Position numbers and translations under genes: made by a program
Assembly (NCBI RefSeq): GCF_003668955.1
Contig: NZ_RAWO01000002.1
Span: forward strand, 279,605 to 343,604
Reading direction: 5' to 3'
From: Corallococcus sp. AB038B
Lineage (GTDB): Bacteria > Myxococcota > Myxococcia > Myxococcales > Myxococcaceae
Length of the DNA stretch: 64,000 bases
Notes under the pieces: generated by a model
The model's database searches: none
What the model was told of the DNA's origin: nothing
Seen by the model: the letters and a program-made list of their open reading frames with translations, nothing else
Shown: one piece after another, positions 53,580 through 64,000 of the stretch
Layout of the letters: every line of letters starts with the position of its first letter
Position numbering within the stretch: position 1 is the stretch's first letter

Positions 53580-55538
53580 GTGATTCGCGAGATCCTCAGC
53601 GGACTGCTATGGCAGGGCCGGGTGGCTTTGCGCAGCGGCGACGTGCGCGTCTTCGCCGCGCATGGCTACGTGGATGAAGGCTACCGGCCTTCGCGCGTGC
53701 CATTCCTCTCCGTTGTCGGCCCGCTGGGCCTGTTCCCCGAACCCGAGCGAGAGAACGGGCGCACGGGCGTCGCCACCTTCCGTGTGCCGGGCCACCTCGT
53801 CGGCAGGCCTCGCGCTTCCGGGGACAGCGTGCCGCCCAATGGCTCGCTCAAGCTGCGCCTGGATGGCCGCGCCACCGTCACCCTTACGGGCCTGCCGGGC
53901 GGCTCGTTTGCTTCCACCGCGACGGGCCCCGCGCTCGCCGCCGCCATCAACGCGCGGCTGGCGGATGCGCTCACCGGTGGACTCTTCCAGGAGCCCACGG
54001 GCGCGCCGCTCACGGACCCGCTGCTGCTGGAGGCGCTCGCTGGCGTCATCGCGCGCTGGGACGTGGAGGGGAGCCGGCTCGCGATCAGCTCCGACGCGGG
54101 CATTCCCTCCATGGAGTTCCGCTCCAGCGTGGAGGTGCTGCCTGTCGCTGGCGGCATCGAAGGGCCTCTGGGCCTGGAGCCTCCGGAGCGTTCTCAAGAG
54201 GGCAGGGTGTTCCTCAGCAAGATCCGCGCGCCCAAGGCCATGGCCATCGATGTGCAGGTGGACCTGTGGGCGGGCTCGCAGGTGGACCTGGCGTCCATCA
54301 TGGACACGGTGGCGCTCTCCATCCCCACGCGCGGGCAGATGGTGCTGCGCCCGTCGCTGCTGGCCGAGGACGTGCCCGAAGGCGCCACGACGGTTCGCCT
54401 GCTGACGCGCGGTGAGCCCACCACGGTCCTGTCCCTGGTGCACCTGGAGGCCAGCGATCAGAACCTGGAGCGCGCGCGCGGCGGACGCGTGGACCTGACG
54501 CCCGGTGCATCCTTCCTTCCCACCTCCGAGGGCCTGCGCCTGTCCGGCACCGGTACTGCCTCCGTCCTCGTCTACCCCATGCCCGCAGTGCCCGACCCCT
54601 TCCACGCCGACAATCCGGCCCCGGACGGACTGGCGCTGTCGGTGGGGCTGCGCGTCGCCGCTGGCGCCGTGGCCGCGCAGTCGTTGCCGGTGGCCGTGCT
54701 GATGGCGCAGGGGCAGCCCGTGCTGCGGCTCATCGTCCGCTACGAGCAGGTGGACACCCGGCTCATGGGCGAGGTGGTAGCCACCGCGACGCTGGCGCAG
54801 GCCACCGGGACGCAGGTCGCGGAGACGCGCTGGCGGCTTCCGGTGGAGCGGCTGGAGGCCGGCGTGGTGCTTCACGCGCGGCTGGAGGCGGGGGAGGGCG
54901 TGGTGTGGCTGTCGGCGGACGGGGTGCCGCAGCCGCTCCAGGACGCGGACGCCACGCCCGCGCCGCCCGTCGCCGCGCCGGGCGTCACCGTCGCCGCGAG
55001 CGACATGGTGCTCACGCTGGGGGCGCAGGCGGGCACGCCGTTGGACTTCACGGTGGACCACGTGCACCTGGTGGCGGAGCCCGTGGGGCCGTTGGATCCG
55101 GCGCTGCGCCGCTCCGTCACGGCGGCCTCGCGCCTCAAGCCCGGCGACGTGGTGGTGCTGGGTTCGAGCGACGATGGCTACCGCGTGGGCAAGCAGCGCT
55201 TCCAGGCGCTGGTGCTGGGGCTGGATGGCGACCGCGTGACGCTCAGCCGCCCCGTGGAGGGCGCCTGGGCCCGGGGCCGCACGCTCGTGTTCCAGGAGGA
55301 GTGCTTCTTCTTCCAGACGCAGCTGCGCCGCCGCGACGACCTCTTGAACCACCTGTACCGCTGCTGCGTGGACTACCGGGTCTCCGCGCTGATGGACGAG
55401 CCGAACGCGCGCAGCACCGCCCGCCTCGTCGAGACGCCGCGGGTGGACCTCATCGCGCGCGGTGCTGCGCGAGGCGCCAGCGGCCATCCGGGAACATCTG
55501 TCACCGAAGTCGATACCGCCAGGCGCGGGACCATCTGA
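53580..55538 (+). CDS. Hypothetical 652-aa protein, first gene of the contractile-injection operon
   Basis: GTG start. Ends 10 nt before the sheath RBS. No family recognised. Confidence 0.45.
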   Translation: MIREILSGLLWQGRVALRSGDVRVFAAHGYVDEGYRPSRVPFLSVVGPLGLFPEPERENGRTGVATFRVPGHLVGRPRASGDSVPPNGSLKLRLDGRATVTLTGLPGGSFASTATGPALAAAINARLADALTGGLFQEPTGAPLTDPLLLEALAGVIARWDVEGSRLAISSDAGIPSMEFRSSVEVLPVAGGIEGPLGLEPPERSQEGRVFLSKIRAPKAMAIDVQVDLWAGSQVDLASIMDTVALSIPTRGQMVLRPSLLAEDVPEGATTVRLLTRGEPTTVLSLVHLEASDQNLERARGGRVDLTPGASFLPTSEGLRLSGTGTASVLVYPMPAVPDPFHADNPAPDGLALSVGLRVAAGAVAAQSLPVAVLMAQGQPVLRLIVRYEQVDTRLMGEVVATATLAQATGTQVAETRWRLPVERLEAGVVLHARLEAGEGVVWLSADGVPQPLQDADATPAPPVAAPGVTVAASDMVLTLGAQAGTPLDFTVDHVHLVAEPVGPLDPALRRSVTAASRLKPGDVVVLGSSDDGYRVGKQRFQALVLGLDGDRVTLSRPVEGAWARGRTLVFQEECFFFQTQLRRRDDLLNHLYRCCVDYRVSALMDEPNARSTARLVETPRVDLIARGAARGASGHPGTSVTEVDTARRGTI

Positions 55539-55548
55539 AACCAGGAGG

Positions 55549-62264: not shown

Positions 62265-62638
62265 TGGGGCGCGGCCTGAACTTCCCCTTCCAGCTGGGAG
62301 ACCTGGGCACTCCGCGCACGGTGGGTCCCTCGCAGGTCATCCGCCAGCAGTTGGAGCAGTTGCTCTTCACGCTGCCCGGGGAGCGGGTGAACCGGCCGCG
62401 CTTCGGATGCGGCGTGCAGCGAATGGTGTTCGGCGCCGCGAGCCCGGAGGCCGCCGCCACGGCCGAGTACATCATCCGCCTCAACGTGCAGGAGTTCATG
62501 CGCGACCAGGTGCGCCTGGACGCAGTGAAGGTGAGCGCCGAGGACGCCACACTCTACGTGGACATCCTCTACACGCTGCTGGCGACGGGCGAGGAACACG
62601 CGGAGCTGTTCCGCCGGGACCTGGAGGCGCCGCCGTGA
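62264..62638 (+). CDS. Baseplate wedge protein gp25/GPW-like
   Basis: MGRGLNFPF...QVIRQQLEQLLFTLPGERVNRPRFGCGV matches the GPW_gp25 pattern. TGATG overlap with the upstream gene. Confidence 0.7.
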   Translation: MGRGLNFPFQLGDLGTPRTVGPSQVIRQQLEQLLFTLPGERVNRPRFGCGVQRMVFGAASPEAAATAEYIIRLNVQEFMRDQVRLDAVKVSAEDATLYVDILYTLLATGEEHAELFRRDLEAPP

Positions 62639-64000
62639 GCGCACGGGTCCTGACACTGCCGCTGGAGGCGTCGCTCGCGGAGGCACAGGCCGCGTTGGAG
62701 ACCACTCCGCCGGGCGAGGTGGAGTGGGTGCTGCCCGTGGGCGAGGGCGTGCTCACCACGAACTTCGTCATCGGCACGCCCGCGCACGCGCTGCGGCTCA
62801 CGGGCGGTCCGGGCGTGACGCTGAAGCTCGACGGCGGGACGCTCGAAGTCACGGGGCTCGTCACCGGATTGTCGGGCGTGACGGTGGTGGCTGTGGACGC
62901 CGGGCTGGTCCTCCTGGGGGCGCGGGTGGAGGTGTCGGACGTCACGGTGAGCGCCACGGCGTCCGGGGATTGCGCGGCGCTGAGCGTGGAGACGCCGGAC
63001 GGCGAGGTGGCCATCGACTCGCTCACGGTGACGCAGGCGAGGGGCGAGGTGGCGACAGGGCTCCGGTTGCTGGCGACGGAGGCCCGCGTCACGGGGCTGT
63101 CCGTGGACGGCGTGAGGGCCACGGTGGGGGATGCCTTCGGCGTGCGCGCGGTCTGCCAACGTTCGCAGTGGGCGGACGTGGCGGTGCGCAACGTCATGGG
63201 CATGGAGACGGGCGTGGGCCTGGAGCTTGCGGGCTTCACCCGAGCGGACCTGTCCGGGCTCACGGTGTCGCAGGTCTCCGGGCCGAACGCGACCGGAGCG
63301 CGGGTGCTGGTGGCTCGGGAGGAGGGCGAGGGCCTGTCCATGGTGGACGTGTCCGTGAGCGAGGTGGATGCGTTCGGGGTGCAGTGGAGCATCGGGCTCT
63401 TGGTGGCCTCGGCGGGCGTGCTCCAGGTGCGTGGCTTCACCGTGCAGCGGGTACAGGGCGGGTTCCCGATGGGCGTGCTCGCATTGGGTGGGCGGAGCAT
63501 CGAAGTGGCCATGGGCCAGGTGGAGGATGTCTCCGCCGGAACACGCGCCACGGGCATGCGGGTGCTGGGGGGACCCTCGCTGGAGCCGGTGGTGGTTCGT
63601 GACGTGGAGGTGAGCCGTGTGTCAGCGGCGCCTGTTCCGGTGTCCGCGCAGCCCGAGGCGTCCTGGTCGGACTGGCTCATCGCCGCGTTGGATGCACTGT
63701 CTGCTTCGGTCGTGGGGCCGCTGACGCTGCCTGCGTTTCCCACCGATGCGGACGTCGTGGGCCTGCACGTGGCCGCGCCGCTGGGTGGCCTGGAGCCGGT
63801 GCTGGACGTGGGCACGCCGGGGGAGATCGCCGTCGAGGACTGCTCCCTCTTCGTCATCACCGGCACCGCGTTGCAACTGGAGGGCGGACTGCGCACGGCG
63901 CTGGTGCGACGCACCGAGGCCTGGACGTCGGTGCACGCGGGCTGGCTCCAGGCGGAACAGCTGTTGCTCGCGCAGCTCACCTGGCACCGGCATGCGCATG
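62635..64000 (+). CDS. Hypothetical Val/Gly-rich beta-helix-like protein (partial, continues past the window end)
   Basis: GTG start overlapping the gp25 stop. Repetitive V/G/S/T-rich strands (GLSVDGVRATVGDAFGVRAV, GFTVQRVQGGFPMGVLALGG). Confidence 0.4.
   Translation, partial: MSARVLTLPLEASLAEAQAALETTPPGEVEWVLPVGEGVLTTNFVIGTPAHALRLTGGPGVTLKLDGGTLEVTGLVTGLSGVTVVAVDAGLVLLGARVEVSDVTVSATASGDCAALSVETPDGEVAIDSLTVTQARGEVATGLRLLATEARVTGLSVDGVRATVGDAFGVRAVCQRSQWADVAVRNVMGMETGVGLELAGFTRADLSGLTVSQVSGPNATGARVLVAREEGEGLSMVDVSVSEVDAFGVQWSIGLLVASAGVLQVRGFTVQRVQGGFPMGVLALGGRSIEVAMGQVEDVSAGTRATGMRVLGGPSLEPVVVRDVEVSRVSAAPVPVSAQPEASWSDWLIAALDALSASVVGPLTLPAFPTDADVVGLHVAAPLGGLEPVLDVGTPGEIAVEDCSLFVITGTALQLEGGLRTALVRRTEAWTSVHAGWLQAEQLLLAQLTWHRHAH

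What the first reader, a model, noticed from the sequence alone, without database searches (positions are those of the whole stretch)
53580..64000. Second contractile injection system (phage-tail/eCIS-like) 6 kb from the T6SS
The operon holds a sheath, two gp19-like tube paralogs, a tube-like protein, a LysM gpX-like protein, a gpD-like hub and gp25/W. These are tightly coupled (TGATG, GTGA and ATGA overlaps). There are no head, terminase or integrase genes upstream. This fits an extracellular contractile injection system or tailocin rather than a prophage. Two different contractile nanomachines sit within 25 kb, separated by a multi-PAS kinase. This suggests a contractile-weapon island. The remainder (spike tip, baseplate J, fibres, tape measure, ATPase, cargo) should lie beyond the window.
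Basis: partly seen in the sequence, partly recalled or inferred. Interest (0 to 1): 0.65.

Follow-up and report, generated by a model that had tools for sequence, protein, structure and literature searches.

The report
Myxobacterial contractile injection system gene cluster
The window holds the first third of a 34-kb, roughly 23-gene phage-tail-like injection machine in a Corallococcus genome; it belongs to the already catalogued eCIS/CIS superfamily, so it is real but not a new kind of system, and it lacks the usual ATPase and cap genes.

Summary
From 53580 to the window end, eleven co-directional genes with gaps of 24 nt or less encode a sheath, two gp19 tubes, a CIS_tube protein, a LysM/gpX protein, a gpD hub, gp25, three unnamed proteins and the start of a Baseplate_J protein. 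T6SS genes (TssM, TssK, TssC, TssF) end 6.5 kb upstream.

Related Corallococcus genomes show what lies beyond the window: two Afp11-type baseplate proteins, a Tail_P2_I–Kelch protein, a 2535-aa DUF6519/β-helix tail fibre, a separate gp5-like spike and about six conserved unknowns. I found no capsid, portal, terminase or integrase. I also found no AAA+ ATPase, DUF4255 cap, PAAR or recognisable tape measure.

The same gene set, with the same boundaries, recurs in Myxococcota, Alphaproteobacteria and Actinomycetota. It is essentially absent from viral contigs.

The closest solved sheaths are the haloarchaeal clade-IIa CIS and the Streptomyces CIS. The split afp8, the duplicated afp11 and the presence of afp12/13 fit eCIS subtype IIa.

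Verdict: a lineage-II contractile injection system, most likely a fibre-bearing released particle, though the mode of action is not settled. The link to the T6SS is inherited within the genus and not seen elsewhere. It is a new member of a known kind, of moderate interest.

The parts
53580..55538 (+). g1, 652 aa. It is the first gene of the conserved cluster and sits where class-II CIS loci usually carry the cap gene. It contains a ConA/LamG-like jelly-roll (lectin-like) domain. Its function is unknown.
55555..57876 (+). Contractile sheath (Cis2/Afp2-4 type), 773 aa. An alternative ATG start at 55549 gives 775 aa. It carries a large central insertion.
   Evidence: PF04984 plus PF17482. PDB sequence matches: 9EZM haloarchaeal Cis2 at 1.4e-88, Streptomyces 8BKY/8BL4 at 1e-81 to 1e-78, Pvc2/Afp2-3 at about 1e-42, pyocin at 4e-13, T4 gp18 at 1e-10 to 4e-10.
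57876..58439 (+). Inner tube protein A (gp19/Cis1a type), 187 aa.
   Evidence: PF06841 at 1.2e-19. Its start overlaps the sheath stop as TGATG.
58464..58955 (+). Inner tube protein B (gp19/Cis1b type), 163 aa.
   Evidence: PF06841 at 3.7e-29. The best PDB matches are CIS tubes: 9R9H, Anabaena All3324 and the AlgoCIS tube, followed by the Streptomyces tube and Afp5.
58957..59832 (+). g5, 291 aa, with two CxxC pairs. It is a relative of the PF12322 'T4_baseplate' proteins that follow the tube genes in other CIS loci. It is probably a hub or assembly factor.
   Evidence: hhalign gives probability 98.3% and E 2.5e-14 to the Rivularia CIS protein L064:3386-4123, which itself hits PF12322 at 1.6e-20. 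It is conserved in L090 and L091 at 58% identity.
59851..60063 (+). p70, a small conserved protein of 70 aa with unknown function.
   Evidence: It is called at the same position in all related loci, at 67-72 aa. It has no family hit.
60060..60788 (+). Tube-like baseplate or tube-initiator protein (CIS_tube, Afp5/7-like), 242 aa.
   Evidence: PF19266 at 1.3e-6, 28.7 bits, above the cut-off of 27. The ATGA overlap with p70 is in the sequence.
60799..61077 (+). LysM/gpX-like baseplate protein, 92 aa. It corresponds to the LysM part of Afp7.
   Evidence: Phage_tail_X at 7e-4 and LysM at 1.5e-3, both below their cut-offs. The orthologue in L091 hits Phage_tail_X at E of 1e-5 or better.
61077..62264 (+). 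gpD/gp27-like baseplate hub, 395 aa. This is the hub half of a split Afp8.
   Evidence: PF05954 at 1.1e-4, below the cut-off. The orthologue in L090 hits PF05954 at E of 1e-5 or better. The separate gp5-like spike gene is encoded 17 kb downstream.
62264..62638 (+). gp25/GPW baseplate wedge protein (Afp9/Cis9), 124 aa.
   Evidence: PF04965 at 4.1e-14. The identical protein is found in six Corallococcus assemblies.
62635..64000 (+). The first 455 codons of J1 (Afp11a/Cis11a), which is 1255 aa in related genomes. The window holds only the β-rich N-terminal extension. The Baseplate_J part lies beyond the window end.
   Evidence: The open frame runs off the window from a GTG that overlaps the gp25 stop. 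The full-length orthologue L001:10372-14136 hits PF04865 at 3e-6 and TIGR02243 at 2e-38 in its C-terminal part.

Best explanation
This is the 5' third of a chromosomal, non-phage contractile injection system of eCIS/CIS lineage II. It resembles subtype IIa most closely.

Shown: the complete cluster, read from closely related Corallococcus genomes, is about 34.5 kb and about 23 co-directional genes, in this order:
- g1, sheath, tube, tube, g5, p70, CIS_tube, LysM, gpD hub, gp25
- Afp11a, Afp11b, and Afp12 (Tail_P2_I plus Kelch)
- a DUF6519/β-helix tail fibre of 2535 aa
- p113, p69, the gp5-like spike, p64
- d544, d723, a variable Pro-rich protein, d248, p73

Inferred mechanism: the hub, spike, LysM, CIS_tube, gp25, Afp11a/b and Afp12 proteins build a baseplate that carries the giant fibres. 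The two gp19 paralogues polymerise into the inner tube. The sheath assembles around the tube in an extended, metastable state. When the fibre and Kelch/lectin-type domains bind a target surface, the baseplate is triggered, the sheath contracts, and the tube and spike are driven through the target envelope.

Because it carries a catalogued eCIS fibre class, I think it most likely acts as a released particle against other cells, in a predatory myxobacterium. The payload is not identified.
For: - The family assignments of all core parts.
- The downstream gene content.
- The same gene order and the same 5' and 3' boundaries in Micromonospora, Kofleriaceae, Polyangiaceae, alphaproteobacterial and actinobacterial loci. 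In the protein search, homologues of the Tail_P2_I–Kelch protein alone are also named from Sorangium and Gemmataceae, but the synteny was not examined in those genomes.
- The sheath is closest to CIS sheaths and far from the pyocin and T4 sheaths. The tube is closest to CIS tubes.
- Three subtype markers match the description in PMC6899500: split afp8, two afp11 copies and the presence of afp12/13.
- The giant protein has DUF6519 plus Beta_helix. This is the eBAP5 eCIS tail-fibre class of PMC12923769.
- eCIS_core/DUF4157 proteins lie directly downstream of the same-subtype cluster in six distant loci.
- The cluster meets the operational eCIS definition of PMC8213781: at least 10 core genes including Afp12.
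- No viral-contig relatives of g1, and one weak partial relative of the spike. No tRNA in the window.
- C. coralloides DSM 2259 is reported to be in dbeCIS (PMC11937823).
Against: - Two of the eight 'backbone' eCIS families of PMC6899500 were not found: the Afp15 AAA+ ATPase and the Afp16/DUF4255 cap. They are missing from the cluster and from about 10 kb on either side. I looked with Pfam, NCBIfam, PHROGs, PDB profile searches and one structure model.
- No PAAR protein or tape measure is recognisable.
- No recognisable toxin or DUF4157 gene follows the cluster in Corallococcus, and no HExxH motif occurs in the unknown proteins.
- The closest experimentally studied relatives are not extracellular. 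The haloarchaeal system is membrane-bound and the Streptomyces system is cytoplasmic.
- No lysis or release genes were seen.
- The subtype was assigned from gene content and PDB similarity. I made no phylogeny.
Confidence: 0.6

Rival explanations
1. It is a cell-associated CIS. It would fire either from the cytoplasmic membrane in a T6SS-like, contact-dependent way (as in Halogeometricum) or free in the cytoplasm to cause regulated death of the producer cell (as in Streptomyces). In a myxobacterium, that could tie it to developmental lysis.
For: - The two best solved sheath matches are exactly these systems: 9EZM at 1.4e-88 and 8BKY/8BL4 at about 1e-80 (PMC11566945; PMC10066040).
- d544 carries a conserved hydrophobic stretch of about 45 aa in all 25 homologues. 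It could be a membrane hairpin and so an anchor.
- No lysis cassette and no cargo gene were found in Corallococcus.
Against: - The cluster encodes a 2535-aa DUF6519/β-helix fibre and a Kelch-bearing Afp12. These are target-binding features. Fibres are what the Streptomyces clusters lack, and Casu et al. point to that lack in their argument for intracellular firing.
- No homologue of the 6-TM haloarchaeal anchor was looked for or seen.
- The hydrophobic segment in d544 is equally compatible with a tape-measure-like protein.
Confidence: 0.25
2. It is a cargo-free killing particle that is functionally like a tailocin. It would be released and would kill by puncturing and depolarising the target, with no loaded effector, even though it belongs by descent to the eCIS lineage.
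For: - No Afp15 ATPase, no DUF4157/eCIS_core protein, no HExxH motif and no recognisable toxin in or next to the Corallococcus cluster.
- The receptor-binding equipment is elaborate.
Against: - Six distant loci of the same subtype have an eCIS_core protein directly downstream, so the subtype as a whole seems to be cargo-associated.
- Corallococcus has variable, partly low-GC genes at the 3' flank. These include a GxSxG hydrolase-like gene, a Pua-like/Metallophos gene and an Annexin giant, and any of them could be effectors.
- Several conserved unknowns (d723, the Pro-rich protein) could be payload.
Confidence: 0.12
3. It is the tail module of a defective or unusual prophage.
For: All the core parts are homologous to myovirus tail proteins.
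Against: - No capsid, portal, terminase, integrase, lysis or replication genes in the 34.5 kb or its flanks, and no tRNA.
- Identical gene content and boundaries recur across three phyla at 30-65% protein identity. This means purifying selection on the tail-only unit.
- GC content equals the genome background.
- It is absent from viral contigs.
- The sheath and tube cluster with CIS proteins and not with phage proteins.
Confidence: 0.03

Closest known systems
eCIS superfamily, lineage II, subtype IIa (dbeCIS classification of Chen et al. 2019, PMC6899500). The only characterised IIa system is the Halogeometricum borinquense archaeal 'T6SS-like' CIS (PMC11566945, sheath PDB 9EZM).
   Same: - Sheath, two tubes, LysM protein, gp25 and Afp12.
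- Afp8 is split into gp27-like and gp5-like ORFs.
- There are two Afp11 copies and no Afp14-type tape measure by sequence.
- The sheath is the best PDB match, at 1.4e-88.
   Different: - The haloarchaeal cluster has Cis15 (ATPase), Cis16 (cap) and a 6-TM putative anchor. None of these was detected here.
- This cluster has g1, a 2535-aa DUF6519 fibre, a Kelch domain on Afp12 and about six conserved unknowns after the spike.
- No PAAR was found, although PAAR is reported for IIa.
Streptomyces cytoplasmic CIS (CIS-Sc/CIS-Sv, subtype IId; PMC10066040; PDB 8BKY, 8BL4)
   Same: - Second-best sheath match, at about 1e-80.
- Two tube paralogues.
- No conventional tape measure.
- The host is a high-GC, developmentally complex soil bacterium.
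   Different: - The Streptomyces clusters have a single contiguous Afp8 and one Afp11 (subtype IId).
- They lack a tail fibre.
- This cluster has a fibre, a split Afp8 and a duplicated Afp11.
Afp / PVC / AlgoCIS (lineage I extracellular CIS)
   Same: Overall architecture and mechanism, and homologous sheath, tube, gp25, J and P2_I proteins. Sheath matches are at about 1e-42 to 1e-35.
   Different: - Lineage I has three sheath paralogues, a fused VgrG-like Afp8, the Afp14 tape measure, the Afp15 ATPase, the Afp16 cap, PAAR and defined toxin cargo at the 3' end.
- Here there is one long sheath, a split Afp8 and none of the last four by sequence.
R-type pyocin / P2-like tailocins
   Same: A contractile tail-only particle with no ATPase and no cargo. 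It also has separate gpD hub, gpV spike and gpX LysM genes, as in P2.
   Different: - The sheath is only distantly related, at 4e-13.
- The tubes are of gp19/CIS type.
- The baseplate proteins are of the TIGR02243 (Afp11) type.
- A DUF6519 eCIS fibre is present.
- There is no lysis cassette and there are no P2-type fibre or chaperone genes.

Membership tests
eCIS superfamily (Chen et al. 2019 screening criterion) | An Afp11 (baseplate J, TIGR02243-type) gene together with non-phage-like Afp1/5 tube genes in one gene cluster | tested here: met
   Two TIGR02243 matches, at 2e-38 and 5e-44. Two PF06841 tubes whose best PDB relatives are CIS tubes.
eCIS superfamily (Chen et al. 2019 'core backbone' of eight) | Afp1/5, Afp2/3/4, Afp7, Afp8, Afp9 and Afp11 are present | tested here: met
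   Afp7 is represented by separate CIS_tube and LysM genes, and Afp8 by separate hub and spike genes.
eCIS superfamily (Chen et al. 2019 'core backbone' of eight) | An Afp15-like AAA+ ATPase in the locus | tested here: not met
   No AAA-type Pfam or NCBIfam hit in the cluster proteins scanned; the small protein p73 at the 3' end was never scanned with any family library. None in the flanks examined in Corallococcus, Micromonospora or MAG loci. The only AAA+ protein seen nearby is a sigma-54 activator in L091. A copy elsewhere in the genome was not searched for. More than 85%, but not all, of dbeCIS loci have all eight.
eCIS superfamily (Chen et al. 2019 'core backbone' of eight) | An Afp16-like cap or terminator (DUF4255/Pvc16_N, T4 gp3-like) | tested here: not met
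eCIS (Geller et al. 2021 operational definition, PMC8213781) | [quoted passage not shown] | tested here: met
   Sheath, tube ×2, CIS_tube, LysM, hub, spike, gp25, J ×2 and Tail_P2_I give 11 genes, plus the DUF6519 fibre.
eCIS subtype IIa | Afp8 is split into gp27-like and gp5-like ORFs (IIa, IIb, IIc) | tested here: met
   gpD hub at 61077-62264. A separate 395-aa Phage_base_V/Gp5_trimer_C spike at L007:21954-23141.
eCIS subtype IIa | Two copies of afp11 (IIa, IIc), with divergent afp12/afp13 present (IIa, IIb) | tested here: met
   J1 of 1255 aa and J2 of 837 aa both match TIGR02243. Tail_P2_I at 4.9e-7. DUF6519 fibre.
eCIS subtype IIa | Afp10 PAAR protein is present (all subtypes except IIb) | tested here: not met
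   No PAAR or DUF4280 hit in the cluster proteins scanned, including the small proteins that flank the spike; p73 was not scanned. The only DUF4280 protein is at 47096-47584, next to the T6SS.
eCIS subtype IIa | Phylogenetic placement of Afp8/Afp11 or the sheath within the IIa clade | not tested
   There is only a proxy: the best solved sheath is the IIa haloarchaeal Cis2 at 1.4e-88, against the IId Streptomyces sheath at 3.6e-81.
Extracellular mode of action (eCIS in the strict sense) | Particles are released from the producer and bind target cells through fibres | not testable with these tools
   A fibre gene of a catalogued eCIS class is present. Release cannot be inferred from sequence.
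R-type tailocin | P2- or Mu-type sheath and tube genes, with a lysis cassette and regulators flanking a tail-only module | tested here: not met
   The pyocin sheath matches at only 4e-13. No holin or endolysin families were found in the cluster or flanks.
Prophage | Capsid, portal, terminase or integrase genes contiguous with the tail genes | tested here: not met
   None in the window upstream or in the 25 kb downstream in related genomes. No tRNA. Absent from IMG/VR.

The most novel reading that the evidence does not exclude
This may be a distinct branch of lineage-II CIS, spread across phyla, that has done without the Afp15 ATPase, the DUF4255 cap and PAAR. In their place it would use its own conserved set of proteins: the g1 lectin-like protein at the cap position, d544 with its hydrophobic hairpin, d723, d248, p113, p69 and p64. 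It could therefore assemble, terminate or anchor differently from every characterised CIS. Two examples would be a membrane-anchored machine or a cargo-free puncturing machine used in myxobacterial predation. In Corallococcus it may be co-regulated with the neighbouring T6SS.
Probability: 0.2. Interest if true: 0.65.

Novelty: new member of a known kind. Interest (0 to 1): 0.4.

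Why it matters
Lineage-II CIS are abundant in soil bacteria, but only the Streptomyces and haloarchaeal systems have been studied, and each turned out to work in an unexpected way.

A fibre-bearing, ATPase-less representative in a culturable predatory myxobacterium has three uses. It would be a tractable model for asking what these machines do in predation or development. It would show how a CIS is capped and loaded without Afp15 and Afp16. And it would show what the roughly nine conserved unknown proteins contribute.

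Chen et al. reported that eCIS and T6SS rarely share a genome (38 of 509 eCIS-encoding strains). Corallococcus carries both, 6.5 kb apart. That makes it a natural case for testing cross-talk or misassembly between the two machines.

Tried and rejected

2. Naming d544, d723, d248, p113, p69, p64 and p70. Pfam, NCBIfam and PHROGs gave nothing significant. The PDB profile search for d723 gave only coiled-coil noise.

3. Finding DUF4255 proteins in other fetched CIS loci, to build a profile for hhalign. The Rivularia locus had none within reach, so I dropped this. It did reveal the link between g5 and PF12322.

4. A β-helix in the J1 N-terminal extension. This was an impression from reading the sequence. 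The single-sequence AF2 model was unusable (pLDDT 47), no internal repeats were found by BLAST and there was no Pfam hit. I do not claim it.

5. Cargo. I looked for eCIS_core/HExxH in Corallococcus cluster proteins and flanks and found none.

6. Promoter and terminator scan. It is uninformative at 70% GC. A sigma-54-like motif upstream of g1 was inspected by eye and is not convincing.

7. Supplements of Chen et al. They are not held, so I could not confirm that the dbeCIS entry for C. coralloides is this locus.

Full report
**Source and gene calls.** The window is about 70% GC. Over 52264-64000 it is 97.3-98.0% identical in DNA to several Corallococcus exiguus-type assemblies, and identical to none of them. 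Raw ORF lists are very noisy at this GC content. I therefore picked genes by third-position GC and checked every junction in the sequence.

From 53580 to the window end there are eleven + strand genes with gaps of -4 to +24 nt:
- g1, 53580-55538
- sheath, 55555-57876 (alternative ATG at 55549)
- tube A, 57876-58439
- tube B, 58464-58955
- g5, 58957-59832
- p70, 59851-60063
- CIS_tube, 60060-60788
- LysM/gpX, 60799-61077
- gpD hub, 61077-62264
- gp25, 62264-62638
- an open frame from 62635 that runs off the window

Pfam confirms the sheath (PF04984 and PF17482), both gp19 tubes, CIS_tube and gp25 above the curated cut-offs. The LysM/tail-X and GPD hits are sub-threshold, but orthologues in distant loci hit those families more strongly.

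Upstream, on the minus strand, lie a DUF1622 membrane protein, a multi-PAS histidine kinase, a 346-aa unknown, an AMP-binding enzyme and a DUF4280 (PAAR-like) protein. Beyond these is a T6SS with TssF, TssC, TssK, TssM and IglE_N. There is no tRNA in the window, and no head, terminase or integrase gene.

**Beyond the window.** The gp25 protein occurs with exactly the same sequence in six Corallococcus assemblies. These assemblies continue the operon. I walked on with proteins from three homology searches and one genome-collection scan. This gave the complete cluster of about 34.5 kb.

After gp25 come:
- J1, 1255 aa. Its C-terminal part matches Baseplate_J and TIGR02243 at 2e-38.
- J2, about 840 aa, matching TIGR02243 at 5e-44.
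- A 1256-aa Tail_P2_I protein with Kelch repeats.
- A 2535-aa protein with an N-terminal DUF6519 domain and a right-handed β-helix.
- p113 and p69.
- A 395-aa Phage_base_V/Gp5_trimer_C spike.
- p64.
- d544, d723, a fast-evolving Pro-rich protein of about 405 aa, d248 and a 73-aa ORF.
These assignments rest.

No AAA+ ATPase, DUF4255 cap, PAAR, tape-measure family, lysis gene, capsid, portal or terminase was found in the cluster or its flanks; p73 is the one cluster protein that was not scanned with any family library. It was wrong for the ATPase and is unfulfilled for the tape measure and cargo.

**A selected unit, not a prophage remnant.** The same genes occur in the same order, starting with g1 and ending with the d248 homologue. 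They are found in about ten Corallococcus species, Kofleriaceae, Polyangiaceae and Byssovorax, several alphaproteobacterial MAGs, Micromonospora pattaloongensis and other Actinomycetota. Protein identity is roughly 30-65%. The protein search for the Tail_P2_I–Kelch protein also names homologues from Sorangium and Gemmataceae, but I did not look at the gene order in those genomes. The flanking genes differ completely between these taxa.

GC content equals the genomic background. Scans of 2.9 million viral contigs found no relative of g1 and only one weak, partial relative of the spike.

**Which family.** The sheath matches solved CIS sheaths far better than phage or pyocin sheaths:

| Solved sheath | E-value |
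|---|---|
| Halogeometricum Cis2 (9EZM) | 1.4e-88 |
| Streptomyces Cis2 (8BKY, 8BL4) | 3.6e-81, 5.2e-78 |
| Pvc2, Afp2, Afp3, Anabaena, AlgoCIS | 1e-42 to 1e-35 |
| R2 pyocin | 4e-13 |
| T4 gp18 | 1e-10 to 4e-10 |

Tube B is likewise closest to CIS tubes.

Chen et al. (PMC6899500) screened for eCIS by the co-occurrence of afp11 with non-phage afp1/5 genes, and this cluster meets that criterion. They describe a split afp8 for subtypes IIa, IIb and IIc, two afp11 copies for IIa and IIc, and afp12/13 for IIa and IIb. The intersection of these three is IIa. The best sheath match is the only characterised IIa system.

The cluster also satisfies the operational rule of Geller et al., which asks for at least 10 core genes including Afp12. 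The giant protein belongs to the DUF6519 'eBAP5' class of eCIS tail fibres, which often carry β-helix C-terminal parts (PMC12923769).

In six distant loci of the same subtype, a protein with the eCIS_core (DUF4157) domain sits directly downstream of the d248 homologue. DUF4157 is the strongest known marker of eCIS cargo. A secondary source states that C. coralloides DSM 2259 is listed in dbeCIS. I could not verify that the listed locus is this one.

**Where it departs from the family.** Two of the eight backbone families of Chen et al., Afp15 and Afp16, were not found, and neither was PAAR.

g5 is related to PF12322 'T4_baseplate' proteins that occupy the same position in a cyanobacterial CIS locus (hhalign probability 98.3%).

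d544 has a strongly hydrophobic stretch of about 45 residues, conserved in all 25 homologues examined. It could be a tape-measure-like protein or a membrane hairpin.

d723, d248, p113, p69, p64 and p70 remain without any assignment.

**Cargo.** In Corallococcus there is no eCIS_core domain in or after the cluster, and no HExxH motif in the unknown proteins. The 3' flank differs between species:
- a low-GC Pua-like/Metallophos gene plus a HAD gene in C. exercitus
- a low-GC 383-aa protein with an AHSQG (GxSxG-like) motif in C. carmarthensis
- LysR, sigma-70 and LtrA genes in other species
- convergent FGE-sulfatase genes and a 2595-aa Annexin-domain gene in a C. exiguus-like assembly

[quoted passage not shown] These are leads, not evidence.

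**Mode of action.** What is shown is the parts list of a contractile tail-like machine with an elaborate receptor-binding periphery. That it works by baseplate-triggered sheath contraction driving a spike-tipped tube is an inference from homology with solved CIS, and I regard it as safe.

Whether the particle is released, membrane-anchored or cytoplasmic is not shown. The fibre and the Kelch and lectin-type domains argue for an external target. Casu et al. note that the Streptomyces clusters lack a conventional fibre and link this to a possible intracellular way of firing. On the other side, the nearest characterised relatives act from within the cell, d544 may be membrane-associated, and no release function is visible.

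I put about 0.6 on a released, fibre-targeted particle and 0.25 on a cell-associated mode. A cargo-free puncturing mechanism remains a live sub-option. The prophage reading is close to refuted.

**The T6SS neighbourhood.** The arrangement TssF, DUF4280, AMP-binding enzyme, 346-aa protein and PAS kinase, then the CIS, is the same in C. macrosporus and in a Myxococcaceae MAG with 79% g1 identity. DUF1622 lies between the kinase and the CIS in the window and in the MAG, but was not called in C. macrosporus. The same CIS subtype elsewhere has unrelated neighbours. This points to one ancestral placement inherited within the genus. It gives no independent support for a functional 'weapon island'.

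It is still worth noting that Chen et al. found both systems together in only 38 of 509 eCIS-encoding strains.

**Verdict.** It is an orthologue of a catalogued but unstudied type of system. Its variant features are the lack of an ATPase, cap and PAAR by sequence, and a block of conserved unknown genes. It is a new member of a known kind, with interest 0.4.

Noticed in passing
window 30593-47584: The T6SS cluster has TssM (31102-34806, -), an IglE_N lipoprotein (30593-31135, -), a DUF2345-like protein (35771-36373, -), TssK (36374-37714, -), TssC (38533-40062, +), TssF (45421-47088, +) and a DUF4280 PAAR-like protein (47096-47584, -). Several ORFs between TssC and TssF have no Pfam hit.
   Followed up: partly
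window 24725-30589 (-): A 1955-aa protein made of HYDIN/ASH/DUF1573 Ig-like repeats lies directly next to the T6SS IglE/TssM genes. It sits in a stretch of lower GC content (0.58-0.66, against about 0.70).
   Followed up: no
window 47096-53405 (-): The block DUF4280, AMP-binding enzyme, 346-aa unknown and multi-PAS histidine kinase, between the T6SS and the CIS, is conserved in C. macrosporus (L095) and a Myxococcaceae MAG (L096). DUF1622 is present in the window and in L096 but was not called in L095. The kinase is a candidate regulator of one or both machines.
   Followed up: partly
L013:15152-16387 and the equivalent position in L010-L036: The gene between d723 and d248 is Pro-rich and evolves fast: 48-69% identity among Corallococcus species, against 80-92% for its neighbours. 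Only about the first 35 residues are conserved in distant loci. The pattern would fit a conserved targeting or docking peptide on a variable body.
   Followed up: no
L013:17443-20012; L010:17499-18650: Directly after the last cluster gene, different Corallococcus species carry different low-GC inserts (52-59% GC). One is a Pua-like/Metallophos protein plus a HAD hydrolase. Another is a 383-aa protein with an AHSQG (GxSxG-type) hydrolase motif. These could be variable effectors or unrelated islands.
   Followed up: partly
L092:11002-17737 (-): A 2595-aa Annexin-domain protein lies convergent to the cluster, about 3 kb past its end, in a C. exiguus-like assembly. Annexin is listed by Geller et al. 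[quoted passage not shown]
   Followed up: no
L025:17822-21229; also L026, L027, L030, L031, L035: Large proteins with the eCIS_core (DUF4157, HExxH) domain lie immediately downstream of the same-subtype cluster in alphaproteobacterial, Polyangiaceae and Acidimicrobiales loci. They are absent from the Corallococcus, Kofleriaceae and Micromonospora loci within the range fetched.
   Followed up: partly
L091:6581-8463: In one metagenomic relative, a sigma-54 activator (AAA+ enhancer-binding protein) and a 96-aa ORF sit directly upstream of g1. The window itself has a PocR-type sigma-54 activator at 3143-5038 (-), far from the cluster.
   Followed up: no
L037 (Myxococcus sp. RHSTA-1-4): This locus holds a different CIS cluster type. 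Its sheath C-terminal half is 44% identical and its spike N-terminus 40% identical to the ones here. Myxococcaceae therefore carry at least two CIS lineages.
   Followed up: no
window 55555-57876: The sheath is about 770 aa, roughly 200-250 aa longer than its closest solved relatives. The extra residues form a central insertion (about residues 190-480) that matches nothing in the PDB sequence search. It probably corresponds to the variable outward-facing domain 3.
   Followed up: no
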